NCBI GenBank assembly: GCA_963843455.1
Contig: CAWJKE010000006.1
Span: 5,510 to 69,509 of the forward strand
Length of the DNA: 64,000 nt
Source of the DNA: an uncultured Actinomycetota bacterium
Lineage (GTDB): Bacteria; Actinomycetota; Thermoleophilia; RBG-16-64-13
Reading direction: 5' to 3'
Part shown: positions 9,073 to 35,000 of the stretch, piece by piece
Layout: each line of letters opens with the position of its first letter
Position numbering within the stretch: position 1 is the stretch's first letter
Notes under the pieces: model-generated
Databases searched by the model: none
What the model saw: only the letters and a program-made list of their open reading frames with translations
What the model was told of the DNA's origin: nothing
Program-made: the position numbers and the translations under genes

Positions 9073-11436
9073 CTACTGCCGGGCCATGGCGATTCGCACG
9101 TCGGCTTCGGTATCGGGGATCAGTTCGCCGGATACATCTATGGTGACCCGCTTGATGGTCCCGGTGAAGCGGAACGCGCCCTGGTATTCCTCGGGCGCTG
9201 CCGGTTCGCGGCCGTCGTAGCCGCACGTGAGACCCTGAGTCCCGAACATGGCCAGTACGGAATGGGGCATGTCTATGCCGGCGACCAGCTTGCGGTCGAC
9301 GTAGAGCTGGCATCGGGCCGGCACCCCGTACCCTTGAGCGGGATCGGGCTTTCCGATGGGCTCGAACTCGTAGCGCAATTCGACTTCACCTTCCGGGATC
9401 ACTGCCTCCGACTTGAGCCAGAACTTGTCGCGGCCCAGCCAGTTGTACAGGAAGTAGAGCCTCCGGTCCTTGACGAAGAAGGTATATCCGCCGGTGCGAC
9501 CGCCGAAGGCCAGCAGCACACCCTCCGCACCGCCCTCGGGGATCACAACCTCCGCCGTGATGCTCCAGGGCCGGTTGTACAACTTGGGCGCTGCGGTGAA
9601 CGGGACCGACGCCCCGCCGGGGTACAAGACGAACTTATCCCTGGGCTTGGCGATCGCCGGGCGTTCCACGTTCAGGCGCTCGAACGCGCTTCCGTCGACC
9701 GGCAGTACCTGGTACTTGCCCGCCTCGGCCCACCACCGGCCGACCATCTCGATCAACTTCTCGGGGTGCTCGGCGGCCACGTTGCGGGTTTCGGAGTAAT
9801 CCTCTGCGACGTGATAGAGCTCCCAGGCGTGCGCCTCGATGTCTGCGAGCACGTCGTTGCTGATCTTGTCGCCGAACTTGCGGCCTTTCTGGGCGGCCTC
9901 GGTGAAGGTGGGACCCGGCCAAGGGCAGACCGCCCGCCAGCCGTCGTGGTCTATAGCGCGATGGCCGATCATCTCGAAGTACTGGGTATGGTGATTAGTG
10001 GGCGCAGCCGGGTCGTTGAACGTGTGGGCGAAGCTCACTCCCTCTATCGGCGCTTGGCTGACGCCGCGGACGTTCTGCGGCGCTTCGACGCCCAGAGCTT
10101 CCAACACCGTCGGCACAAAGTCGATGATATGCCCGTATTGCGTCCGCACTTCTCCCCGCGCGTGAATGCCCTGAGGCCACGACACGATGCACGGGTCTGT
10201 GGTTCCGCCCCGATACGTCTCCCGCTTCCAACGGCGGAACGGCGTGTTGCCGGCGTTGGTCCAGGCCCAGGGATAGTGGTTGCAGCTCTCGACGCCGCCC
10301 AATTTGTCGATCATCGCGAGGTTGTCTTCCAGCGATTCCTTGGCGTTGTTGAAGAAGAACATCTCGTTGAGCGAGCCCACCGGCCCCCCCTCGGAGCTGG
10401 CGCCGTTGTCGGAGACGACCATGATGAGCGTGTTGTCAAGCTCGCCGATCTCCTTCAAGAACTCGAGGACACGTCCGAAGTGATGGTCCGTGAAGCTCAC
10501 GAAGCCGGCATAGACCTCCATGAACCGCGCATAGAGCCGCTTCGCGTCGTTCGGCAGAGTCTCCCAGGCGGGCACGTCGGGGTCGTGGGCCGAGAGTTCG
10601 GTGCCCGGGGGGATGATGCCCATGTCGAGTTGGCGCTGGTGGACCATCTCGCGGTACTTGTCCCAGCCCATGTCGAACTTGCCCTTGTACTTGTCCGCCC
10701 ACTCCTTGGGCACGTGGTGCGGAGCGTGGCCGGCGCCTGTGGCGTAGTAAAGGAAGAAGGGCTTGTCCGGCGCGGTGACCTGTGAGTCCTGAATGAACTC
10801 GATGGCCTTGTCGGCCAGGTCGACGCTCAGATGGTAGCCCTCTTCGGGCGACTTGGGCGGCTCGACCTCATGATTGTCGTAGGTCAGTTCCGGATACCAC
10901 TGGTTGGTCTCGCCGCCGACGAAACCGTAGAAGCGCTCGAAGCCGCGGCCGAGGGGCCAGCGGTCGTAGGGTCCCGCCGCCGTCGTGTGCTCCGGCGGCG
11001 TCAGGTGCCACTTGCCGACGCAGAAGGTGTTGTAGCCTTGGGGTAGCAGCATCTCGCTGAGCATGGCCCTGTCGAAGGGCAGGATGCCGTTGTAGCCGGG
11101 ATAGCCGGTGGAGAACTCGGTGATCATCGCCAGCCCGAGCGAGTGGTGATTCCGCCCGGTGAGGATGCAACCCCGCGACGGCGAGCATAACGCCGTAGTG
11201 TGCATGTTTGTGTAACGCAGGCCGTTGGCGGCCAGGCTGTCAATGACCGGCGTGTCGACCAGCCCGCCGAAGCAGGACAACTGCCCGTAGCCCACGTCGT
11301 CCAGCACGAAGAAGAGAACGTTGGGCGCGCCCTCAGGCGGTCGCGGCGGTTCAGGCCAGGCCGGCGAGGACTCTTCGGTGGTGCGTCCGATGACACCCGT
11401 GAACGGGGCACCATCGCTATAGGTCTTGATGGCCAT
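9073..11436 (-). CDS. arylsulfatase (Cys-type, type I sulfatase family) with about 300-aa C-terminal extension
   Basis: 787 aa; LFFVLDDVGYG...TALCSPSRGCILTGRNHH contains canonical C-X-P-X-R FGly motif; GGGAGGA RBS. Confidence 0.9.
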   Translation of the reverse strand: MAIKTYSDGAPFTGVIGRTTEESSPAWPEPPRPPEGAPNVLFFVLDDVGYGQLSCFGGLVDTPVIDSLAANGLRYTNMHTTALCSPSRGCILTGRNHHSLGLAMITEFSTGYPGYNGILPFDRAMLSEMLLPQGYNTFCVGKWHLTPPEHTTAAGPYDRWPLGRGFERFYGFVGGETNQWYPELTYDNHEVEPPKSPEEGYHLSVDLADKAIEFIQDSQVTAPDKPFFLYYATGAGHAPHHVPKEWADKYKGKFDMGWDKYREMVHQRQLDMGIIPPGTELSAHDPDVPAWETLPNDAKRLYARFMEVYAGFVSFTDHHFGRVLEFLKEIGELDNTLIMVVSDNGASSEGGPVGSLNEMFFFNNAKESLEDNLAMIDKLGGVESCNHYPWAWTNAGNTPFRRWKRETYRGGTTDPCIVSWPQGIHARGEVRTQYGHIIDFVPTVLEALGVEAPQNVRGVSQAPIEGVSFAHTFNDPAAPTNHHTQYFEMIGHRAIDHDGWRAVCPWPGPTFTEAAQKGRKFGDKISNDVLADIEAHAWELYHVAEDYSETRNVAAEHPEKLIEMVGRWWAEAGKYQVLPVDGSAFERLNVERPAIAKPRDKFVLYPGGASVPFTAAPKLYNRPWSITAEVVIPEGGAEGVLLAFGGRTGGYTFFVKDRRLYFLYNWLGRDKFWLKSEAVIPEGEVELRYEFEPIGKPDPAQGYGVPARCQLYVDRKLVAGIDMPHSVLAMFGTQGLTCGYDGREPAAPEEYQGAFRFTGTIKRVTIDVSGELIPDTEADVRIAMARQ

Positions 11437-11549
11437 GAGATCCTCCCTGTTCTGTACTGGCCCTTGAGTCTGAGGGATTCGGTGATGCGGCCCTAGCGAC
11501 GCCTCGCGGTCCGCCGGGGGCGGTGGCCGATGGGGTGCGGAATAGCCCC

Positions 11550-13043
11550 TCAGTGCCCCTTGCTGCTCTGCGCTTCCTCCAGTTGGCGCATCACTGCTTC
11601 CAGGTTGAACGACGCCGGCTTCTGGCGAGGCGGGAACTTAACGAAGTCTTCGATCTGCGCCGCCACCAACGCCTGCATGCCGTAGATCATGAAGGCGTGG
11701 TCGAGCATCCAGTCCCAGTAGGTGTTCGAATTCTCGTCGGCCCGCTCGAACGGGTCGCGGCGAAGGTTGAATATCTTGGGCACGCGCAGAGGCACGAATG
11801 GCTCAGCCCAACATTGTAGCCGCGTCGCACGCTGCTCCATAAGCACGGCTTTCCAGTCCAGGTACCGGATGGCCAGGGTGTCCCCGTCATCGCTGATGTA
11901 GAAGAAGAACTTGCGGGGACTCTCCTCGACCTCACCGGTGAGATAGGGGAGCATGTTGTAGCCGTCCAGGTGGACCTTGAAGGTCTTGTCGCCGGCCACG
12001 TGCCCGTCGAGCAGCTTTTCTTTGATGTTCGGATCGCCCGCGACTGCTGCAAAAGTCGCCGCCCAGTCCTGATGAGTGACGATGCCGTTGAGAACGGTGC
12101 CCGCCTTGAACTTGCCGGGCCAGCGCACGAAGGCCGGCACACGCCAGCCGCCTTCCCAGTTGGTGTTCTTCTCGCTGCGGAACGGGGTGATGCCGGCGTC
12201 CGGCCAACTGTTGTAGTGCGGTCCATTGTCCGTGGAGTACATGACGATCGTGTCCTCCGCGATGCCCAGTTCATCGAGCTTGTCCAGCATCCGTCCGATA
12301 TTCTCGTCGTGGGCGACCATCACGTCGTTGTAGTCTCCCTGGCCGCTCTTGCCCTTGTGCTTGTCGGCGCAGTGGGTGCGGAAGTGCATGGCCGACGTGT
12401 TGTACCAGAGGAAGAACGGCGTGCCGGCGCCGTGAGACCGGTCGATGAAATCGAGCGCGTGCTCCGTGACCTCGTCGTCGATGGTCTCCATACGCTTCTT
12501 GGTGAGCGGCCCGGTGTCCACGATCCTCTGTCCACCCTTGCCGTCGGCCCAGCAGTGCAGCACGCCTCTGGGGCCGAAGCGCTGCTTGAAGGCGGGGTCC
12601 TTGGGATAGTCAGGGAGTTCCGGTTCTTCCTCAGCGTTGAGATGGTAGAGGTTGCCGAAGAATTCATCGAAACCGTGCAGGGTGGGCAGGAACTCGTCCT
12701 TGTCGCCCAGGTGGTTCTTGCCGAACTGACCGGTGGTGTAGCCGTGAGGCTTGAGTAGCTCGGCGATGGTGGGATCTTGTGGCTGCAAACCGAGGTCCGC
12801 TCCGGGCATCCCAACCTTGGTCAGGCCGGTGCGAATGGGATTCTGGCCGGTGATGAAGGCCGCGCGTCCGGCGGTACAGCTCTGCTGGCCGTAGTAGTCG
12901 GTGAAGGCGATGCCTTCGTTGCCGATCCGGTCGATGTTGGGCGTCCGATAGCCCATCTGGCCCCGGCTGTTGTAGCTGATGTTCCACCATCCGATGTCGT
13001 CTCCCCACAAGATGAGAATGTTCGGCTTCCGCTGCTCTGCCAT
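11550..13043 (-). CDS. sulfatase (Cys-type, variant C-X-A-X-R motif)
   Basis: 497 aa; ILILWGDDIGWWN...QQSCTAGRAAFITGQNP: sulfatase signature with Ala instead of Pro at +2; GGGGGAG RBS. Confidence 0.85.
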   Translation of the reverse strand: MAEQRKPNILILWGDDIGWWNISYNSRGQMGYRTPNIDRIGNEGIAFTDYYGQQSCTAGRAAFITGQNPIRTGLTKVGMPGADLGLQPQDPTIAELLKPHGYTTGQFGKNHLGDKDEFLPTLHGFDEFFGNLYHLNAEEEPELPDYPKDPAFKQRFGPRGVLHCWADGKGGQRIVDTGPLTKKRMETIDDEVTEHALDFIDRSHGAGTPFFLWYNTSAMHFRTHCADKHKGKSGQGDYNDVMVAHDENIGRMLDKLDELGIAEDTIVMYSTDNGPHYNSWPDAGITPFRSEKNTNWEGGWRVPAFVRWPGKFKAGTVLNGIVTHQDWAATFAAVAGDPNIKEKLLDGHVAGDKTFKVHLDGYNMLPYLTGEVEESPRKFFFYISDDGDTLAIRYLDWKAVLMEQRATRLQCWAEPFVPLRVPKIFNLRRDPFERADENSNTYWDWMLDHAFMIYGMQALVAAQIEDFVKFPPRQKPASFNLEAVMRQLEEAQSSKGH

Positions 13044-13195
13044 CGTGGTCTCCCCCTTGAACGCAGAATCACTGCAAGACGCGAAACTCTCGCCACTAGG
13101 GCGACTAATCCGATGCCAATATCCATCTTACACGCGGGACAGGCGCCACCGCGGCGATCGGTGCCGAGAGCCCCCGTCTCGACCCATTTACTCGG

Positions 13196-14470
13196 TCACA
13201 CCCCGTGGCACCTCTTGAACTTCTGGCCACTACCACAGGGGCAGAGGTCGTTACGCCCGGCCCGGGCGAATGCCGCCGCAAGTTGTTGGTCTTCTTTGGC
13301 CAGCACGGCCGTGACCCCGTCGGCCGGCAGGCCCCGCCTGAGAAGGTCGGCCATGATCCGCATCGGGTGTTCGGTGTGGGCGAAGAACTCCTGGAGCCCC
13401 TCGCACAGCCAGTTGAGACCTGGTTCGCCCTCAAGCGTGGTGAGGACCCGGTTCTTGGGGCACTCTCCGTTACAGGTGAACAGCCAGCGGCACTCACGGC
13501 AGAGACCGGGGAGCGAGTCCGCCTTGGCCGCGCCGAAACCCCGCTGCCTCTCTGAATCGAGCAAGTCGCCGAGGGGCGCTTCCAGGATGTTGCCCAGCAG
13601 GTAATTCGGCTCCACGTAGTGATCGCAAGAATAGACGTCGCCGTTGTGCTCGAGCGCCACTCCCTCGCCACACGTGGGGCTGAGCACGCACACGCTCGAG
13701 TAGCCGCGCACATAGGAGGCCAGGACGCCGTCAAAGAACAGAACGAAGGTCTTGCCTACATCCCGGCGGACCCACTCGTCGAAGATCTCCATCAGGAAGC
13801 GCCCGTACTGCGCCCCTTCGACCGAGCGGTCGGTGATGGACGTCCCCTCCTGATCGCCTGTCTCGTTGTCGCGCTCGACGATGGGGATGAACTGGATGTA
13901 GTGGGCGTCGAGGTCATCACGGAAGAAGTGGTAGACCTCAAGGGAGTGGTGGCTGTTCACCGCGTTCACCGTGCAGAGGATGTTGAACTCCACCTGATGC
14001 TTCTGAAGCAGCCGGACGGCGGCGACGACCTTGTCGAAAACCGAGCCGCCCCGCCTGTCCCGCCGATAGGCGTCGTGCAAGTCGCGGGGTCCATCCAAGC
14101 TCAGCCCGACCAGAAACTTCTCGTCGTGTAAGAACTCACACCATTCGTCGTCCAGAAGTACGCCGTTGGTCTGGAAGGTGTTCTCCACCGTCACGCCGGG
14201 CGGCGCGTACCGCCTCTCCAGCTCCACAGCTCTGCGGAAGAAGCCAACACCCATGAGTGTCGGCTCGCCACCCTGCCAGGCGATGGTGACCTCGGGAACC
14301 TGATGCGCCTCGATGGTCTGCCGGATGTAGGCTTCGAGCACCTGTTCCGACATCCGGAAGGCGCTGCCCGGATAAAGCCGCTCCTTCTTCAGAAAGAAGC
14401 AGTAGGCGCAGTCGAGGTTGCAGCGCGCGCCTGTAGGCTTAGCCATGGTATGAAAAGCGCGAGGGGTCAC
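13196..14470 (-). CDS. anaerobic sulfatase-maturating enzyme (radical SAM, SPASM domain)
   Basis: 424 aa; AKPTGARCNLDCAYCFF CxxxCxxC radical-SAM motif, GGEPTLMG, C-terminal Cys clusters of SPASM type; C-terminal CPCGSGQKFKRCHG SEC-C-like motif; alternative ATG start at 14446. Confidence 0.85.
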   Translation of the reverse strand: MTPRAFHTMAKPTGARCNLDCAYCFFLKKERLYPGSAFRMSEQVLEAYIRQTIEAHQVPEVTIAWQGGEPTLMGVGFFRRAVELERRYAPPGVTVENTFQTNGVLLDDEWCEFLHDEKFLVGLSLDGPRDLHDAYRRDRRGGSVFDKVVAAVRLLQKHQVEFNILCTVNAVNSHHSLEVYHFFRDDLDAHYIQFIPIVERDNETGDQEGTSITDRSVEGAQYGRFLMEIFDEWVRRDVGKTFVLFFDGVLASYVRGYSSVCVLSPTCGEGVALEHNGDVYSCDHYVEPNYLLGNILEAPLGDLLDSERQRGFGAAKADSLPGLCRECRWLFTCNGECPKNRVLTTLEGEPGLNWLCEGLQEFFAHTEHPMRIMADLLRRGLPADGVTAVLAKEDQQLAAAFARAGRNDLCPCGSGQKFKRCHGV

Positions 14471-27134: not shown

Positions 27135-27893
27135 TTACCTCTCCTCTTCGACCTCCCTTGCCCCCTCCCCCTTAACCCGCGCTTCGCGCTCCAAGAACTT
27201 CTCCCGCCCTTCGGTGTAGGCCGGCAGGGCCCAGGTCATCTTCTCCAAGCTCTTGATGATCACGGGGATCTTGTCCCAGGGGATGGAGATGAGGATCCAC
27301 CCTTCGGGTAGCGCGTGCCGCGCCTTGGAGCCGAAGCCCATCCCGGTGATCATGTGGTTCACTTTTCCGGTCAGCCACGGGTAGGCGAAGATCCAGGCGC
27401 AGCTCAGCACCGGGGTCTTGACGCTCTCCCACAGTTCGCCGGTGGAGTAGCTCATCGCGCGGAGAACGATCTCGGCCTGGGAGGGAGTGGCCATAAGAAT
27501 CAACAGGTCGGGCTCGAAGGTCAGGACGTCCAGTATCGAGAACGCCGCGTAGTTGACCGTGCCCTTCGCGAATCTTGGGACGTGTTGGTAGATCCTCTCG
27601 TTCGCGCGCGGCTCGTCAAACACTCCGAACTTCTCGCCGAGCAGGCCGGCTTCGGCGAAGATCGGCGCCTCCTCCATCCCGAGGACGACCCTTCCAAAGC
27701 AATCCTCCTCCTTCTTGGAGAAATAGAAGGGGGTGCCTCTTTCCTGCGCTATTCGGATCATTTCGCAGAAGGCTGCCGGCCTTTCGAGCCTCTCCATGCC
27801 CTCCGGGCGCCCGAACAGGAACTTCACGCCCACCGGAGCGTGCTCGAACTCGAACTTCCGCAAGATCGACAGGTCGGTCTTCAGCTTCCTCAT
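27135..27893 (-). CDS. DUF169 family protein
   Basis: 252 aa; KFEFEHAPVGVKFLF...AFCEMIRIAQERGTPFY...LSCAWIFAYPWLTGKVNHMITGMGFG are DUF169 hallmarks. Confidence 0.7.
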   Translation of the reverse strand: MRKLKTDLSILRKFEFEHAPVGVKFLFGRPEGMERLERPAAFCEMIRIAQERGTPFYFSKKEEDCFGRVVLGMEEAPIFAEAGLLGEKFGVFDEPRANERIYQHVPRFAKGTVNYAAFSILDVLTFEPDLLILMATPSQAEIVLRAMSYSTGELWESVKTPVLSCAWIFAYPWLTGKVNHMITGMGFGSKARHALPEGWILISIPWDKIPVIIKSLEKMTWALPAYTEGREKFLEREARVKGEGAREVEEER

Positions 27894-27969
27894 GACACCT
27901 CCAAGCGGTCGGGCTGCACCTGCCCATCATAGACAGGCGGGGCAGGGCTCCGCTATGCTCCGAACACCG

Positions 27970-28800
27970 ATGAGTCCGAGAAGACGAAAGCAGTTTGCTC
28001 AGTCCGGCCCGGCTTTCGCCGAGCGGTACGGCCCTTGGGCGCTGATTGCAGGAGCTTCCGAGGGCTTGGGTGCCGCCTACGCCGGCGCGCTTGCCCGGCG
28101 TGGCCTCAATCTCGTCCTCGTCTCGCGGCGAAAAGCGCTCCTCGACGACCTTGCCGAGGGTCTGCACGGCGCACATGGTGTGGAGGTTCTGGCGCTGGAC
28201 GGAGATCTGGGGGAGCGGCACTTCCTGGAAAGTGTCCAGGATGCCTGCTCCGGGCTGGAAGTCGGCCTGGTCGTCTACAACGCGGCCCACGCCCCCATCG
28301 GCGAGTTCGCCTCGGCTCCGCTTGAGGATCTGTTGCGGGTGGCCGCGGTGAACATCCGGGCGCCCGTGGCGCTGGTTCGGGGGCTATTGCCCGGCATGAC
28401 CGAGCGCGGCCGGGGCGGCGTCATCCTCATGACCTCTCTGGCCGGCAACCAGGGCTCGCCCTATATCGCCACCTACGCGGCAAGCAAGGCCTTCAACCGG
28501 GTGCTGGCGGAGGGCCTGTGGTACGAACTGAAGAACAAGGGCGTGGATGTGGTCGCCTGCTGCGCCGGTGCGGTGCGTACACCAGGTTACGTGGAGGCGG
28601 CGGCGGGCAAAGATGCCCCAGGTACGCTCGATCCCGACGAAGTGGTCGAGCAGGCGCTGTGGGCGCTGGGTCGCGGGCCGGTGGTGATCCCCGGGTACGT
28701 CAATCGAATGGCTAGCATTTTCATGACCCGGCTGCTGCCCCGCCGTAGAGCCATTTCCATCATGGCGCGTAACACAGCCGATCTCAAGGACGTCCCATGA
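27970..28800 (+). CDS. short-chain dehydrogenase/reductase (SDR) family oxidoreductase
   Basis: GASEGLGAAYAGALARRGLNLVLVSRR cofactor motif, NAAH...Y-x3-K (YAASKAF) catalytic motif; ATG 27970 (or 27955). Confidence 0.8.
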   Translation: MSPRRRKQFAQSGPAFAERYGPWALIAGASEGLGAAYAGALARRGLNLVLVSRRKALLDDLAEGLHGAHGVEVLALDGDLGERHFLESVQDACSGLEVGLVVYNAAHAPIGEFASAPLEDLLRVAAVNIRAPVALVRGLLPGMTERGRGGVILMTSLAGNQGSPYIATYAASKAFNRVLAEGLWYELKNKGVDVVACCAGAVRTPGYVEAAAGKDAPGTLDPDEVVEQALWALGRGPVVIPGYVNRMASIFMTRLLPRRRAISIMARNTADLKDVP

Positions 28801-29882
28801 CCGACTTCGCTGCCGGTTTCTTCGCCCCGTGGATCATCTACGCGGTGATTCTCGCGCTCCACCTGGCGTTGCCCGCGCGGAAGGTCGAGGGCTACGTCAT
28901 CGACTCGACCACCGGCGCGCCGCTGCGCTACCGGCTCAACGGCCCCCTGGTCCTCGTCTCCTTGGTACTGGTCTGGGTGATCCTCGGTCTCGCCGGCATC
29001 TTCGCCTGGGATTGGCTGTGGACCCACCGCTGGCCGGGACTGATCGGCTCCGCGACACTCGGAGTGCTCTTCAGCCTAGTTGTCGTCCTGACGGCTCCGC
29101 GCACTGGCCGCTCGGTCCTCGCCGATCTGTACTTCGGCCGCTGGGACAATCCGCAATTCTTTGGCCGCCGGGTCGACGTCAAGATGTTCCTCTACCTGAC
29201 CGGTGCCACCATGCTTGCGCTCAATATCCTCTCGTTCACGGCCCACCACGTTCTGGTGTTCGGATCGGCCGCCTCTCCCGGGGTTGGCCTCTACTGTGCC
29301 CTCTTCCTCTGGTTTATCATCGACTATCTCGTCTTCGAGCGGGTCCACCTCTATACGTACGACATCTTCGCGGAGCGCGTGGGGTTCAAGCTCGGCTGGG
29401 GCTGCTTCACCTTCTATCCGTATTTCTACGCCGCGGGGCTCTGGGCCGTGGCCGATAGACCCGACCCGGGTACATCCTGGTGGCTTCTTGTGATCTACGC
29501 CGTCATATTTTTCGTCGGGTGGACCCTCTCGCGGGGGGCGAACATGCAGAAGTACACCTTCAAGCGCGATCCAGGACAGGTCTTCCTGGGCTTCATGAGG
29601 CCGCGCGTTCTGACGGATGGGAAGAATGCTCTGCTCTCCAGCGGATTCTGGTCCGTGTCCCGGCACGTGAACTACCTGGGGGAGATCCTCATGGCCGCGG
29701 GTCTGACCCTGGTCTTGGGCTATCCCGGCTACTGGGTGGTGTGGCTCTATCCGCTGTACTACGTAGCGTTGCTCTTCCCGCGCGAGCGAGCCGATGAGCG
29801 GCGCTGCGCCGCCAAGTACGGCGAATTGTGGACGGAGTACGAGCGACGGGTACCGCGGCGGATCATCCCGTGGCTGTACTGA
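28797..29882 (+). CDS. ERG4/ERG24 (C-14 sterol reductase / 7-dehydrocholesterol reductase) family membrane reductase homolog
   Basis: 361 aa. N-terminal LPARKVEGYVIDSTTGAPLRYRLNG matches the LPGK..G..L...LKYRING motif of sterol reductases. C-terminal SRHVNYLGEIL...LFPRERADERRCAAKYGELWTEYERRVPRRIIPWLY matches the RHPNY...RDEx-C-xxKYG-xxW-xxY-xxVPYRIIP-xIY signature. Start overlaps SDR stop (ATGA). Confidence 0.7.
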   Translation: MTDFAAGFFAPWIIYAVILALHLALPARKVEGYVIDSTTGAPLRYRLNGPLVLVSLVLVWVILGLAGIFAWDWLWTHRWPGLIGSATLGVLFSLVVVLTAPRTGRSVLADLYFGRWDNPQFFGRRVDVKMFLYLTGATMLALNILSFTAHHVLVFGSAASPGVGLYCALFLWFIIDYLVFERVHLYTYDIFAERVGFKLGWGCFTFYPYFYAAGLWAVADRPDPGTSWWLLVIYAVIFFVGWTLSRGANMQKYTFKRDPGQVFLGFMRPRVLTDGKNALLSSGFWSVSRHVNYLGEILMAAGLTLVLGYPGYWVVWLYPLYYVALLFPRERADERRCAAKYGELWTEYERRVPRRIIPWLY

Positions 29883-29984
29883 CGCCGTGTGCAACGGGTC
29901 GATTCAACGCGCCAAGGCGCCGAGTGAATTGAAGCTGGAGAGGGAACATCCGTAGCGAGCATCGCGCGGGAAGGGAGAAAGACA

Positions 29985-31448
29985 ATGAGTGACGACCAAA
30001 AGAAGCTGACCACCAATTTCGGGGTGCCGGTCCCCAACAATCAGGACAGCATGACCGCGGGGCCGCGGGGACCGATGCTGCTGCAGGACGTCTGGTTCCT
30101 GGAGAAGCTGGCCAATTTCGACCGGGAGGTGATACCCGAGCGCCGCATGCACGCCAAAGGCTCCGGCGCCTTCGGCACTTTCACCGTCACCGGCGACATC
30201 ACCAAATACACCAAGGCCAAGCTCTTCTCCGCCGTGGGCAAGAAGACCGACCTCTTCGTACGTTTCTCGACCGTGGCTGGCGAGCGCGGGGCCGCCGACG
30301 CCGAGCGCGACATCCGCGGCTTCGCGGTGAAGCTCTACACCGAGGAAGGCAACTGGGACCTGGTGGGAAACAACACCCCGGTCTTCTTTTTCCGCGATCC
30401 ACTGAAGTTCCCCGACCTCAACCACGCGGTCAAGCGCGATCCTCGTACCAACATGCGCAGCGCGCAGAACAACTGGGACTTCTGGAGCTCGCTTCCGGAG
30501 GCGCTTCATCAGATCACCATCGTCATGAGCGACCGCGGCCTCCCCGCCACCTACCGTCACATGCACGGCTTCGGCAGCCACACGTTCAGCCTCATCAATG
30601 CGGCCGGCGAGCGCCACTGGGTCAAGTTCCACTGGGTCTGCCAGCAGGGCATCAAGACCCTCACCGACGACGAGGCCACCGAGATCGTGGGCAAAGATCG
30701 GGAGAGCCACCAGCGCGACCTCTACGAGGCCATCGAGAACAAGGACTTTCCCAAGTGGAAGCTCTGTGTCCAAGTGATGCCCGAGAGAGACGCGGCCACC
30801 TACAAGTTCCACCCCTTCGACCTCACAAAGGTCTGGCTGCACGGCGACTACCCGGTGACAGAAGTCGGCGTGATGGAGCTCAACAAGAACCCCGAGAACT
30901 ACTTCGCGGAGGTGGAGCAGGCCGCGTTCAACCCGGCCAATATCGTGCCGGGCATCGGCTTCTCGCCGGACAAGATGCTGCAGGGGCGCCTGTTCTCCTA
31001 CGGCGATGCTCAACGTTACCGCCTGGGCGTGAACCACCACCTCATCCCCGTCAATCAGGCCCGCTGCCCGGTGCACGGCTTCAGCCGCGATGGGGCCATG
31101 CGAGTGGACGGCAACTACGGGAGCACGTTGCACTACGAGCCCAACAGCTACGGCCTGTGGCAGGAACAACCGGAGTTCGCCGAGCCGCCGCTCGCGATCA
31201 CGGGTGCCGCCGACCGCTGGGACGCCCGCGCGGATGACAGCGACTACTACACGCAGCCGGGCCTGCTCTTCAACCTCATGGGGCCGGAGAAGCAGCGCGT
31301 GCTGTGCGAGAACACCGGACGCAACCTGACCGGGGTGACCAAGGACGTGCAACTTCGCCACATCCGGAACTGCCTCAAGGCCGATCCGGCCTACGGAGAG
31401 GGAGTGGCGGCCGCTCTCGGCATCCCGATGAGCGAGGTCGACGGGTAG
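29985..31448 (+). CDS. katA: catalase (monofunctional haem catalase, small-subunit clade)
   Basis: 487 aa; RERIPERVVHAKG-like [15 protein letters not shown], distal His/Asn and proximal Tyr context, catalase-wide identity. Confidence 0.95.
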
Positions 31449-31477: not shown

Positions 31478-32611
31478 CTAGTCGATCGCGGGTGCCTCCA
31501 GCTCGCGCTCTTTCCCCTTCTTCTGTCCGGAAGGACTCATGAAGGTGGAGAGAGCTCGCGTGCTCTCGTAGGATTCGAAGAACAGCAACTTCACCATCAA
31601 CATCAGGGGCACCGACATCAGCGCCCCGACCGGCCCCAGTACCCAAGCCCAGAGAATGAAGGACAGAAAGACGGCCAGCGAAGTAAGACCGGTCCGCTCG
31701 CCCATGAACCGGGGGGCAATGGCGTTGTTGACGAAGCCGTTGATGACGATGACGATGGCCACCACGATGGCGGCGCGCGTGAAGCCGAACTCGAGCAGGG
31801 TGACGAAGAACGGGGGGATGACCGCTAGGACGAAGCCGATATTGGGGATATAGCTGAGAAGGAAGAACATCAGGGCCCACAGCAGGGCGAAGTCGACGCC
31901 GAAGGCGTAGTACACGATCGCCGCAAAGACCGCCGTAAGGATGTTGAGCCAGGTCAACGTGAACAAGAACGTTCGAGTCACGGAGGCGAAGCTGTAGAAG
32001 GCCTGGCCAAGCCTGGGTCCCAAGAGCAGGTCGTCCTGCAGCTTGCGGGGGAACGAGTACACCTCAGCGATCATGAATGCCACTATCAGGATCATGAGGA
32101 ACGCGTTCGAGAGCAACGAGATAAGCAGACGCACCGAGGATGTCACCCACCCGATGACCTTGTCCGGGCGTAGGACGTTGCCCGTGATGCCGCTGATGTC
32201 GATACCGCGATCTGCGGACCAGCTTTGCAGATCAGACGCGATCCGTGTCAGGTTCTCTTGGTAGACCGGGACCTTGGTGTTGATCTGCCCGAGAGAGGTC
32301 GCGATGATGCCTACGAAGAGCGCAGCCACGATCAAGAAGCCCACCAACACGGTCACGAGGGCCGCCCACGGAGGCATCCCCCGGCGCTTGAGCCACTGCA
32401 GGATGGGACTCAGTCCCATGACCACGAACATGGCGAGGAAGATCGGCGCGAGAATGGACCGGGAGTACCTCATGCCGTAGAGCACAATCGTCGTGCACGC
32501 GAGGGTGAAGAGCAGGCCGGAGGGGCGGCCGCGCAGGCCCAGCCCCACGTCACGCGCCCTCGTGCGCCGTCCGTGGCGCGCCCAGGTCGTCTGCCGCAGA
32601 CGCGTCGTCAA
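31478..32611 (-). CDS. AI-2E (PerM/YhhT) family transporter
   Basis: 377 aa, 8 TM; C-terminal LGPVGALMSVPLMLMVKLL is AI-2E family signature. Confidence 0.8.
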   Translation of the reverse strand: MTTRLRQTTWARHGRRTRARDVGLGLRGRPSGLLFTLACTTIVLYGMRYSRSILAPIFLAMFVVMGLSPILQWLKRRGMPPWAALVTVLVGFLIVAALFVGIIATSLGQINTKVPVYQENLTRIASDLQSWSADRGIDISGITGNVLRPDKVIGWVTSSVRLLISLLSNAFLMILIVAFMIAEVYSFPRKLQDDLLLGPRLGQAFYSFASVTRTFLFTLTWLNILTAVFAAIVYYAFGVDFALLWALMFFLLSYIPNIGFVLAVIPPFFVTLLEFGFTRAAIVVAIVIVINGFVNNAIAPRFMGERTGLTSLAVFLSFILWAWVLGPVGALMSVPLMLMVKLLFFESYESTRALSTFMSPSGQKKGKERELEAPAID

Positions 32612-32761
32612 GTTCTTTGTTCTCCTGGCTCATGAGGCGCTCCTTCGTCGCGGGATACTCTGCTATTACCACGCGGCGTTCTCCACACCTCCCTCCGGAT
32701 GTCTCGCGGCTCACGCGCGTCGGCGCGGTGCGCGGAGACGACTTGGGCGGCACCTTGGAGC

Positions 32762-33317
32762 TTAGGACAGGTGCTGGATGAGGATCCTCACGCCTATCCC
32801 GATCAGCACCAGTCCCCCGGCTCTCTCCGCCCACACCCCGAAGCGGTGCCCAAGCCGGCAACCGAACACAGCCCCCACGCCACTGACGATGGCCGCCACT
32901 ACGCCTATGACCACGGCCGGGAACCATATGGAGATGTTGAGGAAGGCAAGGCTGAGTCCCACGGCCAGGGCGTCGATGCTGGTCGCCACTGCGAGCACGA
33001 GCAGGTTCCACCCCCGGGTGGGGTCCTTGGTCGGGGCTTGGTCGTCGCGGAAACGAGTCCCACAGCATCCTGCCGCCGATTATCACCAGCAGGCCGAAGG
33101 CGACCCAGTGATCGATCGCCTGGAAGAATCCCGAGAAGGCGGACCCGGCCAGCCAGCCGATCACCGGCATGGCGAACTGAAAGAAGCCGAAAGCAAGCGC
33201 GACGCGCAACACGAGCCCATACCTGACAATCCCGATCTGGACGCCGCACGCGGTGGACACGGCGAAGGCGTCCATCGAGAGGCCGAGGGCTATCAGGAGG
33301 AGGTAGGGGAAGCTCAT
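32762..33317 (-). pseudogene. mntP: manganese efflux pump MntP, interrupted by a single-nucleotide frameshift near 33045-33055
   Basis: N-half (SFPYLLLIALGLSMDAFAVS...GGRMLWDSF) and C-half (LLVLAVATSIDALAVGLSLAFLNI...LVLIGIGVRILIQHLS) align to MntP in two frames; removing one C in TTTCCGCG joins them as GGRMLWDSFRDDQAPTKDPTRGWNLLVLAVATSIDAL. Confidence 0.7.
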
Positions 33318-33361
33318 AGGCGAGCGGACATCGAGGGGAGCGAGCTAGGCCGCATGCCGCC

Positions 33362-35000
33362 CTAGTGCTCCGTCTGGGCCTGGACCAGGCTGTCTCCGTG
33401 ATACTTGCGCCTCAACGCCGGTTTGTCGATCTTGCCGGTGGCGTTGCGGGGCACCTGGTCGAGAGATGATCGGCGCGGGCGCTTATAGCGAGGGAGGCCG
33501 GAACAGAACTCGAGGATCTCAGCCTCGGTCCGGTGGTGTCCGCGTTTCAACTGGACTATGGCTGCCGCGATCTCGCCCAAGCGTGCGTCGGGCAGGCCGA
33601 TGACGGCGACGTCTTTGACGTCCGGGATGGCGGTGTAGGAAGTCCTCAATCTGGACCGGGTAGATGTTCTCGCCGCCCGTGATGATGACATCCTTCTTGC
33701 GATCCACCAGATGGATGAAGCCGTCCTCATCGGTCCGGGCCATGTCGCCGGTGAGGAGCCAGCCGTCGCGTCATGCACGGTCGCCGTCGCCTCGGGATCG
33801 TTGTAGTAGCTCTTCATGACCCCCGGGCCCTTGACGGCCAGCTCGCCGATGGCACCCGGCTCGACCGGCGCCCCGGAGTCGTCGACGATCATCGTCTGCC
33901 ACTGGTAGCCCGGGATGCCGATGGCTCCGACCTTGTGGACGTTCTCGATGCCCAGGTGGACACACCCAGGACCGACCGATTCGGTGAGCCCGTAGTCGGT
34001 GTCGTACTGGTGGCTGGGGAAGTGCTCCAGCCAGCGGTGAACAAGGCTCGGCGGCACCGGCTGGGCGCCGATGTGCATGAGCCGCCACTGGGCGAGTTCG
34101 TAGTGCGTCAGGCTTTACGTCACCCTGGTCGATGGCCTGGAGGATGTCCTGCACCCAGGGGACGAGCAGCCAGACGATGGTGACCTTTTCGTCGGAGATG
34201 GTCTGAAGGATCCATTCAGGCTTGGTGCCGCGCAGCAACACGCCCTTGCTCCCCGCCAGCAGACTCCCGAACCAGTGCATCTTGCCGCCGGTGTGGTAGA
34301 GCGGGGCGATGCAGAGGAAGTTGTCGTCCCGGTCCTGACCGTGATGGTTCTGCTCCACCTCGGCCGCCGACATCAGGCTGCGATGATCGTGCAGTATCGC
34401 CTTGGGGAAGCCGGTGGTACCGGAGGAGAAATAGAGCGCTCCGTCTTCCTGCTCGGAGATCTCGATGGCGGGGGGCTCTGCTGAACAGCCGGGTGTCACC
34501 TCGCTGTAGCTTTCCGCGAACGTGGGGCAGTCGGCTCCTACGAAGAAACGGGGGTCGAGTCCGGGCATCCGGTCGATCACGGCTTCCACCCGGCCCACGA
34601 ACTCAGGCCCAAAGACGAGGGCCCGGGTCTCGGAGAGCTTCAGACAGTACTCGATCTCCTCCGCCGTATAGCGATAGTTCATCGGCACCGCCACCGCCCC
34701 GGTCTTGAGGATGCCGAAGTAGATCGGGAGCCACTCCAGGCAGTTCATGAGGAGGATCGCCACCTTGTCGCCTCTGCCGATGCCCCTGCTCAGGAGCAGG
34801 TTGGCGAAGCGGTTGGCTCCCTCGTCAAAAAGCCGCCAGGTGATCTCGCGCCGGGAGTATTCGTGCGCATTGGTCTCCATGAGCTCGTACTCCCGCCAGG
34901 TGACCTCACGCTTCTCTTTAACCTCGGGATTGACGCAGACCAAACAAACTTCGTCGCCATAGAGTGCGGCGTTGCGCGAGAGTAGCTCGGTGATGACCAT
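33362..35000 (-). pseudogene. AMP-dependent acyl-CoA synthetase/ligase (long/medium-chain fatty-acid CoA ligase), fragmented by at least 3 frameshifts
   Basis: N-terminal 409-aa ORF carries AMP-binding box YFSSGTTGFPKA; C-terminal pieces (VMKSYYNDPEATA; [23 protein letters not shown]; RPRRSSLDQVPRNATGKIDK) lie in three different frames between 33362 and 34100. Confidence 0.7.

What the first reader, a model, noticed from the sequence alone, without database searches (positions are those of the whole stretch)
27970..31448. Bacterial ERG4/ERG24-type sterol reductase homolog co-transcribed with an SDR and followed by catalase
The 28797..29882 product carries both diagnostic blocks of eukaryotic C-14 sterol reductase/7-DHCR/ERG4: LPxKxxxG..L.YRxNG near the N-terminus and the RHxNYxGE...KYGxxWxxYxxxVPxRIIPxxY C-terminus. 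Its start overlaps the stop of an SDR (the eukaryotic 3-ketosteroid reductase ERG27/HSD17B7 is also an SDR), and a monofunctional catalase follows 100 nt downstream. Sterol-reductase-family genes are uncommon in bacteria, and no cyclase or other sterol/hopanoid genes are in the window. The substrate (an exogenous sterol, a polyprenol/quinone-like double bond, or another lipid) is unknown. The SDR plus enoyl-type membrane reductase plus H2O2 detoxification trio looks like a small lipid double-bond-reduction module.
Basis: partly seen in the sequence, partly recalled or inferred. Interest (0 to 1): 0.6.

Follow-up and report, generated by a model that had tools for sequence, protein, structure and literature searches.

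The report
SDR-coupled sterol-reductase-like membrane enzyme pair
Two overlapping genes, a short-chain dehydrogenase and a membrane reductase related to sterol C-14 reductases, form a gene pair kept together in many bacterial phyla; it is not part of sterol synthesis, its lipid substrate is unknown, and the neighbouring catalase is not part of it.

Summary
The three ORFs are real. The 361-aa protein is a true ERG4/ERG24-family member (Pfam E=5e-40; model matches MaSR1, TM 0.83). The SDR stop overlaps its start (ATGA).

The SDR pairing is strongly conserved. It is adjacent in 54 of 58 assessable reference-genome loci from at least six phyla, and within 2.5 kb in 66 of 69 assessable Bacteroidota-type metagenome loci. 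Sequence divergence of the two genes correlates (r=0.85).

The catalase follows only in four very close relatives and is not part of the module.

The protein is not the sterol-pathway C-14 reductase. It belongs to a separate clade that keeps the NADPH-binding residues. The predicted catalytic Tyr/Asp of canonical enzymes is replaced by invariant Phe/Glu (120/120 versus 0/114). Canonical bacterial homologues can sit in sterol gene clusters (with cyclase, epoxidase and ERG2 in one locus, ERG2 alone in another). In 1.7 Mb around this clade, none of those genes appears.

Best reading: a two-enzyme, NADPH-dependent module that saturates a C=C next to an alcohol or ketone in a membrane lipid, analogous to DHRSX/SRD5A3. 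The substrate is unresolved: a sterol-like lipid, a sphingoid base, or an isoprenoid alcohol.

It is a new variant of a known enzyme kind.

The parts
27955..28800 (+). Classical NADP(H)-type short-chain dehydrogenase/reductase (281 aa from the ATG at 27955, or 276 aa from the ATG at 27970). It is the conserved partner of the reductase.
   Evidence: Pfam adh_short E=5.7e-33. GASEGLG glycine motif, Arg-Arg after strand beta-2 (LVSRR), and N/S/YxxxK catalytic residues are all conserved across 44 orthologues. An orthologue lies next to the reductase in 54 of 58 assessable genome loci and in 59 of 69 assessable Bacteroidota-type metagenome loci, plus 7 more within 2.5 kb. The best named relatives are all below family cut-offs: mycolate reductase, 7beta-hydroxysteroid dehydrogenase, HSD17B13. 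Homologue alignments reach residue 1 of the 27955 start in L004 and L008-L010. A promoter-like site at 27930-27959 would instead favour the 27970 start. The start is therefore unresolved.
28797..29882 (+). Integral-membrane, NADPH-dependent ERG4/ERG24-family reductase (361 aa) belonging to a non-canonical 'Phe/Glu' clade.
   Evidence: Pfam PF01222 E=5e-40. MaSR1 (PDB 4QUV) matches at E=3.4e-34 by sequence. AlphaFold model pLDDT 89.4, pTM 0.88, with 4QUV as top structural hit at TM 0.83. NADPH-contact residues are conserved: N292 = MaSR1 N359 and R329 = R395. Predicted catalytic residues are changed: F173 for Y241 and E296 for D363. ATGA start/stop overlap with the SDR.
29985..31448 (+). Monofunctional catalase. 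It is a neighbour only and not part of the conserved module; it is listed because the finding included it.
   Evidence: Pfam Catalase E=4e-192. It is found after the pair only in L005, L007, L022 and L047, whose reductases are 80-90% identical to the window's, and in none of the other roughly 155 loci. No terminator was detected in the 102-nt gap, so read-through transcription in this particular genome cannot be excluded.

Best explanation
The SDR (27955-28800) and the ERG4/ERG24-type membrane protein (28797-29882) form a two-enzyme module that is translationally coupled and inherited together. The membrane protein binds NADPH and reduces a carbon-carbon double bond in a hydrophobic, membrane-resident substrate. 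The SDR interconverts an alcohol and a ketone or aldehyde on the same molecule. The most likely logic is oxidise, saturate, re-reduce. The SDR oxidises an allylic (or isomerisable) hydroxyl to a carbonyl, which activates the neighbouring double bond. The membrane reductase then delivers hydride from NADPH to the conjugated C=C. The SDR finally reduces the carbonyl back to an alcohol. This is the scheme established for DHRSX plus SRD5A3 in dolichol synthesis, and for sterol-to-stanol conversion through 3-keto intermediates. The module is not the C-14 reduction step of sterol biosynthesis. The substrate is not identified. In my order of preference the candidates are a sterol-like polycyclic lipid taken up from outside, a sphingoid base or ceramide, or an isoprenoid alcohol. 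What is shown: family membership, fold, retained NADPH site, altered catalytic pair, conserved pairing, and absence of sterol-synthesis context. What is inferred: the order of reactions, that the two enzymes share one substrate, and the identity of that substrate.
For: Pairing. The SDR orthologue is adjacent in 54 of 58 assessable GTDB loci whose reductase is at least 50% identical. These come from Actinomycetota, Spirochaetota, Myxococcota, Bacteroidota, Alpha- and Gammaproteobacteria, Verrucomicrobiota, Acidimicrobiia and Marinimicrobia. Its stop overlaps the reductase start by 1, 4, 10 or 13 nt in most loci. In Bacteroidota the SDR is convergent rather than co-transcribed, yet it is still adjacent in 59 and within 2.5 kb in 7 more of 69 assessable metagenome loci. 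No other neighbour is conserved across phyla. Pairwise identities of the two proteins correlate with r=0.85 over 946 pairs. Enzyme competence. The fold matches MaSR1. The NADPH contacts N359 and R395 are conserved. The SDR catalytic tetrad and NADP-type Arg are conserved. Distinctness from sterol synthesis. The signature at MaSR1 positions 241/245/359/360/363/395/399 is F-Y-N-Y-E-R-D in 120 of 120 family members, against Y-x-N-Y-D-R-D in 114 of 114 canonical bacterial homologues (Y at 241 and D at 363 invariant), and there are 39 fixed differences between the groups. In the NJ tree the SDR-linked loci form their own clade. The canonical type lies in a full sterol cluster in L090 and next to ERG2 in L088/L089. 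In 1.70 Mb around this clade there is no OSC, SQS, SE, ERG2, SdmB-like or GGR homologue. Many carriers come from anaerobic-digester, sludge or fen samples, or are Bacteroidales or Spirochaetota; inferring that these cannot make sterols, because sterol synthesis needs O2, is my own knowledge. Precedent for the mechanism: DHRSX/SRD5A3 (PMC11250103).
Against: The catalytic role of Tyr241/Asp363 in canonical enzymes is itself a prediction from modelling (PMC12489058), so the Phe/Glu change may not alter the chemistry. ERG4/ERG24 enzymes characterised so far reduce dienes by protonation and hydride transfer, not enones. Four loci inside the clade lack an adjacent SDR (L031 Plesiocystis, L059 Enhygromyxa, L060, L048), so the reductase may be able to work alone, or the SDR may be encoded elsewhere. 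The closest sister group (43-46% identity; Dehalococcoidia, Binatia and others) has no SDR in any of 21 loci. Conserved adjacency shows a functional link but not the order of reactions. The tree is a neighbour-joining tree on 262 columns without support values.
Confidence: 0.6

Rival explanations
1. One reading: a genuine sterol C-14 (or C-7 / C-24(28)) reductase working with an ERG27-like 3-ketosteroid reductase in an endogenous sterol or sterol-like biosynthetic pathway.
For: The closest characterised relatives are delta-14 sterol reductases: MaSR1 at E=3e-34, and plant FK and Naegleria types among the nearest named representatives. The clade has members in the sterol producers Plesiocystis, Enhygromyxa and Sandaracinus (L031, L059, L044). 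P. pacifica was reported to have 'two copies of FK' (PMC2817430), and one of them may be the L031 gene.
Against: The clade is separate from canonical enzymes and has an invariant Phe/Glu in place of Tyr/Asp. Two of the three canonical-type bacterial homologues whose context was read lie inside or beside sterol gene clusters (the third, does not). This clade never does, across 1.7 Mb. The window has no sterol genes. A separate, large canonical MaSR1-type family exists in bacteria, including Myxococcales, and would account for C-14 reduction there. In the sterol-producing myxobacteria Plesiocystis (L031) and Enhygromyxa (L059) the SDR is not adjacent. Many carriers are probable anaerobes.
Confidence: 0.05
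2. Substrate-specific version A: the pair saturates the ring system of sterols taken up from the environment (sterol to stanol, through a 3-keto-4-ene intermediate). The SDR acts as a 3-hydroxysteroid dehydrogenase and the membrane enzyme as the enone reductase.
For: Every characterised member of the family acts on sterols. The SDR's best named matches are hydroxysteroid dehydrogenases: 7beta-HSDH structures 5FYD/5GT9 at E=7e-27, and NCBIfam 7betaHSDH is the top match for the L054 partner SDR, all below cut-off. The eukaryotic sister clade is in choanoflagellates, chytrids and amoebozoans, which I take to be sterol producers (own knowledge). Carriers include Spirochaetota, and intestinal spirochaetes hold cholesterol and cholestanol in their membranes (PMC4683989). 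Known gut sterol-reducing enzymes belong to other families, so this role is not already filled for environmental bacteria.
Against: The SDR similarities are generic and below every curated cut-off. No sterol uptake or binding genes are conserved nearby. There is no evidence that these particular organisms contain sterols. A delta-5 to delta-4 isomerase activity would also be needed.
Confidence: 0.25
3. Substrate-specific version B: the pair acts on sphingoid bases or ceramides. The SDR oxidises the allylic 3-hydroxyl of a 4-ene base, the membrane enzyme reduces C4=C5, and the 3-ketone is re-reduced, giving the dihydro form.
For: In one Bacteroidales lineage the reductase follows serine palmitoyltransferase (NCBIfam NF047600, 684 bits, above its 640 cut-off) and a KdsR-like 3-ketodihydrosphingosine reductase (329 bits, below its 400 cut-off). 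All three are on one strand with 11- and 47-nt gaps, and the partner SDR is convergent. The same arrangement is seen in L092, L093, L095 and L097. The taxa carrying the pair overlap known sphingolipid producers: Bacteroidota, Alphaproteobacteria, Myxococcota (own knowledge).
Against: The spt linkage is confined to loci whose reductase is at least 90% identical to L054, which amounts to one lineage. It is absent from about 60 other Bacteroidota-type loci with up to 8 kb of flank, and from all other phyla and the window. No ceramide synthase or other sphingolipid gene is conserved nearby.
Confidence: 0.12
4. Substrate-specific version C: the pair saturates an isoprenoid alcohol such as a polyprenol, phytol-type alcohol or retinol. 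This would be a direct bacterial analogue of polyprenol to dolichol conversion.
For: The gene logic is the same as DHRSX (an SDR) plus SRD5A3 (a membrane reductase of the same structural superfamily) (a steroid 5-alpha-reductase is the second structural hit). Polyprenols are universal, which would fit the broad, patchy spread. A heliorhodopsin gene lies next to the pair in four Actinomycetota loci, a weak hint towards retinoids.
Against: The argument rests on analogy only. No isoprenoid, glycosylation or carotenoid gene is conserved near the pair. The heliorhodopsin is limited to four Actinomycetota loci, three of them from metagenomic bins of one sample, and is absent from the window. Eukaryotes that carry the sister clade would be expected to have SRD5A3 already (own knowledge).
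Confidence: 0.15
5. SDR + reductase + catalase form a three-gene module linking lipid double-bond reduction to H2O2 detoxification.
For: The catalase is 102 nt downstream on the same strand with no detectable terminator, and the order is kept in L005, L007, L022 and L047.
Against: Those four loci are close relatives (reductase 80-90% identical) that share much wider synteny, including DUF169, DUF188, SBF and AI-2E genes. None of the other roughly 155 loci has a catalase. NADPH-dependent reduction produces no H2O2.
Confidence: 0.03

Closest known systems
Delta-14 sterol reductases of the FK/MaSR1 type (plant FACKEL, Naegleria and Dictyostelium C-14 reductases, Methylotuvimicrobium alcaliphilum MaSR1, PDB 4QUV), and more distantly ERG24/TM7SF2/LBR
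   Same: Same Pfam family and same fold (TM 0.83 to 4QUV). 59 fixed positions are shared with canonical bacterial homologues, including the N-terminal LPxxxxxG...YRxNG block, the NADPH contacts N359/R395 and the C-terminal KYGxxWxxYxxxVPxRIIP motif.
   Different: Only 26-38% identical. It forms a separate clade. The predicted catalytic Tyr241 and Asp363 are invariant Phe and Glu here, and there are 39 fixed group-specific differences. It is never found in sterol gene clusters. It is paired with an SDR, which the canonical type is not.
DHRSX + SRD5A3 (polyprenol to polyprenal to dolichal to dolichol 'three-step detour', PMC11250103)
   Same: An SDR works together with an NADPH-dependent polytopic membrane C=C reductase of the same structural superfamily. 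This provides a tested precedent for why such a reductase needs an SDR partner.
   Different: SRD5A3 belongs to the 7-TM steroid 5-alpha-reductase family (PF02544), not to ERG4/ERG24. The SDRs are not shown to be orthologous. Here the link is genomic and untested. The resemblance concerns how the pair may work, not family membership.
Uncharacterised eukaryotic 'ERG4/ERG24 family' proteins (Monosiga brevicollis A9VAA6, Salpingoeca rosetta F2U813, chytrid and amoebozoan proteins)
   Same: Same Phe/Glu signature and 40-50% identity over the C-terminal 260 residues, which is closer to the window protein than any canonical sterol reductase.
   Different: They are longer (380-580 aa) with divergent N-terminal parts. 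Their function is unknown as well. No conserved SDR partner can be read from eukaryotic gene order. The S. rosetta model joins the reductase to part of an extended-SDR/3beta-HSD-like domain, but both halves are truncated, so it may be two merged genes.
DUF1295 (PF06966) / isoprenylcysteine carboxyl methyltransferase-like membrane proteins, the names most automatic annotations give this family
   Same: Shared C-terminal cofactor-binding region (DUF1295 hit E=1e-8 over residues 229-351). Sources name relatives 'DUF1295 domain-containing protein' or 'Ste14'.
   Different: The full-length match is to ERG4_ERG24 (138 against 35 bits) and includes the N-terminal block that DUF1295 proteins lack. The fold match is to the sterol reductase. 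The Ste14/ICMT label is an annotation artefact.

Membership tests
ERG4/ERG24 superfamily (Pfam PF01222) | Full-length match to the family profile above the curated threshold | tested here: met
   138 bits against a cut-off of 27, E=5e-40, profile positions 75-432 of 432.
ERG4/ERG24 superfamily (Pfam PF01222) | Polytopic helical fold of the solved member MaSR1 | tested here: met
   AlphaFold model pLDDT 89.4. Foldseek top hit 4QUV with TM 0.83, rmsd 3.0 A, 358 columns.
ERG4/ERG24 superfamily (Pfam PF01222) | NADPH-binding residues (MaSR1 N359 and R395 = LBR N547 and R583) | tested here: met
   N292 and R329, invariant in all groups.
Canonical delta-14 sterol reductase (ERG24/FK/TM7SF2/LBR/MaSR1) | Predicted catalytic pair Tyr241/Asp363 (MaSR1 numbering; ScERG24 Tyr257/Asp374) | tested here: not met
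   F173 and E296. The signature is F...E in 120 of 120 family members, against Y...D in 114 of 114 canonical bacterial homologues and in the plant, Naegleria and red-alga representatives.
Canonical delta-14 sterol reductase (ERG24/FK/TM7SF2/LBR/MaSR1) | Groups with characterised C-14 reductases in a phylogeny | tested here: not met
   In the NJ tree the SDR-linked clade, the Y...E clade and the eukaryotic F...E clade all branch apart from the FK/MaSR1 group. The tree has no support values, so an ML tree is still needed.
Canonical delta-14 sterol reductase (ERG24/FK/TM7SF2/LBR/MaSR1) | Genomic association with sterol synthesis genes (cyclase, CYP51, ERG2, SdmAB) in bacteria | tested here: not met
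   None in the window or in 1.70 Mb of related loci. Canonical homologues do show it in L090, L088 and L089.
Canonical delta-14 sterol reductase (ERG24/FK/TM7SF2/LBR/MaSR1) | Reduces the delta-14 bond of delta-8,14 sterols | not testable with these tools
   Needs an enzyme assay or erg24 complementation.
DUF1295 / ICMT-like | Best match to PF06966, and no N-terminal sterol-reductase block | tested here: not met
   The DUF1295 hit is partial and weaker (35 bits, residues 229-351). The N-terminal block LPARKVEGYV...YRLNG is present and conserved.
SDR + membrane reductase 'oxidise-saturate-re-reduce' systems (DHRSX/SRD5A3 type) | A catalytically competent SDR functionally tied to the membrane reductase | tested here: met
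   Catalytic N/S/Y/K and the NADP-type Arg are conserved. Adjacency holds in 54 of 58 genome loci and 59 (+7 nearby) of 69 metagenome loci. Start/stop overlaps are common, and co-divergence gives r=0.85. The tie is genomic, not biochemical.
SDR + membrane reductase 'oxidise-saturate-re-reduce' systems (DHRSX/SRD5A3 type) | The SDR acts both before and after the reductase on one substrate, through a carbonyl intermediate | not testable with these tools
   Needs reconstitution with a candidate substrate and detection of the intermediate.
Three-gene module including catalase | Catalase conserved next to the pair | tested here: not met
   Only 4 very close relatives have it.

The most novel reading that the evidence does not exclude
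The pair is a previously unrecognised, horizontally mobile bacterial lipid-saturating system, sharing an ancient clade with uncharacterised eukaryotic proteins. It would convert an unsaturated membrane lipid alcohol into its saturated form by SDR oxidation, NADPH-dependent conjugate reduction by a re-tooled sterol-reductase fold (Phe/Glu active site), and re-reduction. Candidate conversions are environmental sterols to stanols, or 4-ene sphingoid bases to dihydro bases. If sterols are the substrate, this would give a genetic marker for the microbial stenol-to-stanol conversion that geochemists use as a redox proxy (own knowledge). It would also mean that many non-sterol-producing bacteria remodel eukaryotic sterols.
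Probability: 0.3. Interest if true: 0.75.

Novelty: new variant of a known kind. Interest (0 to 1): 0.6.

Why it matters
ERG4/ERG24 enzymes are treated as markers of sterol biosynthesis, and an earlier survey regarded the FK type as almost absent from bacteria (PMC2817430). This analysis shows a large, tightly conserved bacterial clade: typically 361 aa in the clusters closest to the window protein, 70% identity between phyla, hundreds of species and thousands of metagenome clusters. Automatic annotation labels it 'delta14-sterol reductase', 'DUF1295' or 'Ste14'. None of these labels fits. The clade has its own active-site signature, an obligate SDR partner and no link to sterol synthesis.

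Three consequences follow.

1. Homology-based inference of bacterial sterol pathways from an 'ERG24 homologue' can be wrong. The Phe/Glu versus Tyr/Asp signature gives a simple way to tell the two apart.
2. The pair defines a compact, testable two-gene system of unknown lipid chemistry, present in soil, sediment, sludge and marine bacteria.
3. An uncharacterised eukaryotic sister clade, in choanoflagellates, chytrids and amoebozoans, may share the function.

Tried and rejected
1. **Catalase as part of the module.** Rejected: it is present in only four close relatives.
2. **Other conserved neighbours.** ORFs from 83 + 43 loci were clustered, and nothing besides the SDR is shared across phyla. 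My first greedy ORF caller picked antisense ORFs in high-GC loci, so I redid the calling with a GC3 filter.
3. **The block shared by the marine Alphaproteobacteria/Flavobacteriaceae-labelled group.** It turned out to be housekeeping genes: HAD hydrolase, DapD, CinA, FabI-like, M20 peptidase, TauE.
4. **Sphingolipid link.** It is genuine in one Bacteroidales lineage. A dedicated metagenome scan did not find it in 62-78%-identity relatives, so it stays a minority hypothesis.
5. **Heliorhodopsin link.** It holds in only four Actinomycetota loci, three of them from bins of one sample, and not in the window.
6. **Apparent in-frame SDR-reductase fusions in L004 and L047.** Not trusted. They come from MAGs of the same survey series as L022 and L030, whose reductase match breaks off part-way, and L047's own match stops at residue 241.
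7. **The Salpingoeca 785-aa reductase + extended-SDR model.** Both domains are truncated at the junction, so it is probably merged gene models.
8. **The 2026 J Bacteriol '8,14-sterol reductase' paper.** It concerns an unrelated NTF2-fold enzyme.
9. **Exact-sequence look-up of the window protein.** It is not on record.
10. **Identity of the literature's P. pacifica ERG24 homologue.** I could not determine whether PPSIR1_23244 is the L031 gene.
11. **Literature searches for this gene pair.** They found nothing.

Full report
**1. What is in the window**

Three ORFs lie on the + strand.
- A classical SDR runs from 27955 (or the second ATG at 27970) to 28800. Pfam adh_short gives E=5.7e-33.
- A 361-aa membrane protein runs from 28797 to 29882. 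Pfam ERG4_ERG24 gives E=5e-40, 138 bits against a cut-off of 27.
- A monofunctional catalase runs from 29985 to 31448. Pfam Catalase gives E=4e-192.

The junction reads GTC CCA TGA CCG, so the SDR stop overlaps the reductase start in an ATGA arrangement. The 102-nt gap before the catalase has no terminator-like site and no unusual structure, z=0.04.

The flanking genes are a divergent DUF169 gene and a convergent AI-2E transporter gene. Pfam scans of about 50 ORFs over the whole 64 kb found no squalene synthase, cyclase, P450 or other sterol or hopanoid gene. They found sulfatases with a radical-SAM maturase, ion channels, a 2-oxoacid:ferredoxin oxidoreductase, a class I Glu/Gln-type tRNA synthetase and similar genes.

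The closest related loci come from uncultured Actinomycetota soil MAGs labelled Thermoleophilia or Gaiellales.

**2. Family and fold**

The protein matches the solved bacterial sterol reductase MaSR1 (4QUV) at E=3.4e-34 over its whole length. An AlphaFold model (pLDDT 89.4, pTM 0.88) has 4QUV as its top structural match, with TM 0.83. A steroid 5-alpha-reductase is a distant second.

The DUF1295 match is partial and much weaker. The N-terminal block LPARKVEGYV...YRLNG is present and conserved. The protein is therefore a true ERG4/ERG24-family member. The 'Ste14' and 'DUF1295' names that sources give its relatives are annotation artefacts.

**3. The family is large and the SDR pairing is conserved**

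- The word-indexed search found 3055 clusters at E<=1e-5. The best 120 are 69-87% identical and nearly all are 361 aa.
- The exhaustive search of 50%-identity representatives found 1724 clusters at E<=1e-3 and 185 at E<=1e-30.
- A scan of one genome per GTDB species found 314 loci. They come from Actinomycetota, Spirochaetota, Myxococcota (including Plesiocystis pacifica, Enhygromyxa and Sandaracinus), Flavobacteriaceae, Saprospiraceae, Bacteroidales, Alpha- and Gammaproteobacteria, Verrucomicrobiota, Acidimicrobiia and Marinimicrobia. A more distant group comes from Dehalococcoidia/SAR202, Binatia, Gemmatimonadota and others.

Adjacency counts:

| Set | SDR adjacent | Not adjacent | Not assessable |
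|---|---|---|---|
| Genome loci, reductase >=50% identical | 54 | 4 | 1 |
| Genome loci, reductase 43-46% identical | 0 | 21 | 0 |
| Bacteroidota-type metagenome loci | 59 within 300 nt, 7 more within 2.5 kb | 3 | 11 |

L022 was re-scored by eye as adjacent, because a frameshift splits its reductase match.

- In 49 genome loci the SDR lies upstream on the same strand. Its stop usually overlaps the reductase start by 1, 4, 10 or 13 nt.
- In Bacteroidota the SDR lies downstream on the opposite strand. Adjacency is therefore kept there even without co-transcription.
- Clustering of all flanking ORFs found no other neighbour shared across phyla.
- Pairwise identities of the two proteins across 44 loci correlate with r=0.85.
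- Reductases from Spirochaetota and Actinomycetota MAGs are about 70% identical. For a membrane protein this suggests transfer of the pair as a unit, strong constraint, or both.

The SDR keeps the glycine-rich motif, an NADP-type Arg pair and the N/S/YxxxK residues.

The catalase follows the pair only in L005, L007, L022 and L047, which are close relatives sharing wider synteny. Elsewhere the downstream gene is a B12-radical SAM gene, a type II secretion gene, a cupredoxin gene or something else. The 'trio' is not a unit.

**4. It is not the sterol-pathway C-14 reductase**

*Residues.* Published work identifies MaSR1 N359 and R395 as NADPH contacts, equivalent to LBR N547 and R583 (PMC4951196). 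It identifies Tyr241 and Asp363 as the predicted catalytic pair, equivalent to yeast ERG24 Tyr257 and Asp374 (PMC12489058). A MAFFT alignment maps these to window residues N292, R329, F173 and E296.

| Group | Signature at MaSR1 241/245/359/360/363/395/399 |
|---|---|
| Family members | F-Y-N-Y-E-R-D in 120 of 120 |
| Canonical bacterial MaSR1-type homologues | Y-Y-N-Y-D-R-D in 108 of 114; Y at 241 and D at 363 in all 114 |

There are 59 shared fixed positions and 39 fixed differences between the groups.

*Tree.* In a neighbour-joining tree the SDR-linked loci form one clade. That clade includes the four loci without an adjacent SDR. The order moving outward is:
1. the Y...E clade without an SDR;
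2. a clade of 380-580 aa proteins that share the F...E signature; all those that could be identified are eukaryotic (Monosiga, Salpingoeca, chytrids, amoebozoans);
3. the canonical Y...D group (plant FK, Naegleria, red alga, MaSR1).

*Context.* The canonical type is also widespread in bacteria, with 1847 hits to MaSR1 at E<=1e-20. Where its context could be read, it shows sterol genes in two of three cases.
- L090 carries two squalene synthases, squalene epoxidase, a P450 fusion, a GGR-type reductase, ERG2, the reductase, an oxidosqualene cyclase, a Rieske protein, a second P450 and a 3beta-HSD-like gene.
- In a Myxococcales MAG, ERG2 lies directly upstream.
- A third locus showed nothing.

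By contrast, a tblastn with the L090 sterol proteins against the window plus 163 loci of this clade (1.70 Mb) found no cyclase, squalene synthase, epoxidase, ERG2, SdmB-like or GGR homologue. It found only one generic P450 and one Rieske protein. The positive control worked.

**5. How it probably works**

Shown:
- a competent NADP(H) SDR and a membrane reductase with an intact NADPH site are kept together across phyla;
- the reductase's predicted proton-donor pair is changed.

Inferred:
- the two enzymes act on one hydrophobic substrate;
- the SDR supplies or removes a carbonyl next to the double bond that the membrane enzyme reduces.

The best precedent is dolichol synthesis. There the SDR DHRSX oxidises polyprenol, SRD5A3 reduces the conjugated double bond, and DHRSX reduces the aldehyde (PMC11250103). 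Sterol-to-stanol conversion through 3-keto-4-ene intermediates follows the same logic.

Loss of the Tyr and the Asp-to-Glu change would fit a shift from protonating a diene to polarising an enone. This is speculation.

**6. Substrate candidates**

- **Sterol-like lipids from outside the cell.**
  - All characterised relatives act on sterols.
  - The SDR's best named matches are hydroxysteroid dehydrogenases, although all are below cut-off.
  - Many carriers are Bacteroidales or Spirochaetota, or come from anaerobic-digester, sludge or fen samples, and probably cannot make sterols.
  - Intestinal spirochaetes contain cholesterol and cholestanol (PMC4683989).
  - Known gut sterol reducers use other enzyme families.
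- **Sphingoid bases.** In one Bacteroidales lineage the gene follows serine palmitoyltransferase and a KdsR-like reductase. A targeted metagenome scan showed the linkage only in loci at least 90% identical to L054.
- **Isoprenoid alcohols.** This rests on analogy only. The one weak hint is a heliorhodopsin next to the pair in four Actinomycetota loci.

None of these is established.

**7. Comparison with the literature**

Desmond and Gribaldo (2009) found FK-type reductases in bacteria only in P. pacifica, as 'two copies'. Wei et al. (2016) listed single ERG24 homologues for myxobacteria by BLAST. Hoshino and Gaucher (2021) noted that ERG24 is the exception to eukaryotic monophyly. I found no paper describing the SDR-linked clade or its signature. 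The library searched is limited to open-access papers and preprints.

**8. Verdict**

The family assignment and the SDR partnership are right. The catalase link and the sterol-synthesis analogy are not.

The finding is a new variant of a known enzyme kind: a widespread, SDR-coupled, non-canonical branch of the sterol-reductase family whose substrate is unknown.

Main limits:
- there is no biochemistry for any member;
- the catalytic-residue argument rests on modelling in the literature;
- the tree has no support values;
- MAG taxonomy labels may be imperfect;
- no whole-genome co-occurrence test was possible.

Noticed in passing
window 32550-35000 (- strand): An AMP-binding (acyl-CoA ligase-like) gene is split into two overlapping ORFs (33771-35000 and 33362-34078). 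The ORF before it (32550-33317) starts like a small membrane protein and then degenerates into low-complexity sequence. Intact 544-aa orthologues of the ligase exist near the pair in at least 7 Actinomycetota loci. These are probably indel errors in a long-read assembly, or pseudogenes.
   Followed up: partly
L054 3845-7895; L055; L092, L093, L095, L097: In one Bacteroidales lineage the order is serine palmitoyltransferase (NCBIfam equivalog, above its cut-off), then a KdsR-like SDR, then the ERG4/24-like reductase, all on one strand. The partner SDR is convergent. The linkage is absent from relatives at 62-78% identity.
   Followed up: yes
L013, L018, L056 (about 4200-5000, - strand); L003 876-1661: A heliorhodopsin gene lies directly upstream of, and divergent from, the SDR-reductase pair in three Actinomycetes MAG loci, and about 3.5 kb away in a Thermoleophilia MAG. 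There is none in the window.
   Followed up: partly
L025, L028, L048 (Gammaproteobacteria / Rariloculaceae MAGs): Here the reductase is flanked by an FAD amine-oxidase-fold gene, a sulfotransferase and a second, different 348-aa SDR. In L048 the usual partner SDR is missing. In my clustering, proteins grouped with this second SDR also lie near Y...E-type reductases in L075 and L082, but a later tblastn with it did not recover those two loci above 120 bits. This may be a lineage-specific lipid-tailoring cluster.
   Followed up: partly
L004 4903-7086; L047 4474-7002: The SDR and the reductase lie in one open reading frame, an apparent fusion. Both loci come from MAGs of the same survey series as L022 and L030, whose reductase match breaks off part-way, and L047's own match stops at residue 241. 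I therefore suspect indel errors rather than a real fusion.
   Followed up: no
P0154 (Salpingoeca rosetta F2U813, 785 aa): This eukaryotic gene model joins an F...E-type ERG4/24 domain to part of an extended-SDR/3beta-HSD-like domain. Both are truncated at the junction. It could be merged neighbouring genes or a real fusion. A chytrid homologue (P0173) carries an N-terminal FUN14 domain.
   Followed up: no
L090 (soil metagenome contig Ga0137465_1000005, 274 kb): An uncultured bacterium carries a compact sterol gene cluster: two squalene synthases, an amine-oxidase-fold gene, a cNMP-binding/ferredoxin/P450 fusion, squalene epoxidase, a GGR-type (Bsr-like) reductase, two ERG2 copies, a canonical C-14 reductase, an oxidosqualene cyclase, a Rieske SdmA-like gene, a second P450 and a 3beta-HSD SdmB-like gene.
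   Followed up: no
L062-L083 (Dehalococcoidia/SAR202, Binatia, Pseudomonadales, Gemmatimonadota, Latescibacterota MAGs): This sister subfamily (43-46% identical, about 365-380 aa) keeps the Tyr but has Glu (Y...E). It has no adjacent SDR in any of 21 loci, and its function is also unknown.
   Followed up: partly
L059 7014-7958 (Enhygromyxa MAG): A DUF1295-family paralogue (Pfam E=1e-51) lies immediately downstream of the ERG4/24-like gene, with an O-methyltransferase upstream on the other strand. No partner SDR is adjacent.
   Followed up: no
window 9073-14470 (- strand): Two sulfatase genes are followed by a radical-SAM/SPASM protein with a C-terminal SEC-C motif, which looks like an anaerobic sulfatase-maturating enzyme. 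A sulfate permease gene lies nearby.
   Followed up: no
window 27135-27893 (- strand) and L003-L010, L021: A DUF169 gene is divergently adjacent to the SDR in the window and in several Actinomycetota relatives. This is lineage-level synteny only, and its function is unknown.
   Followed up: partly
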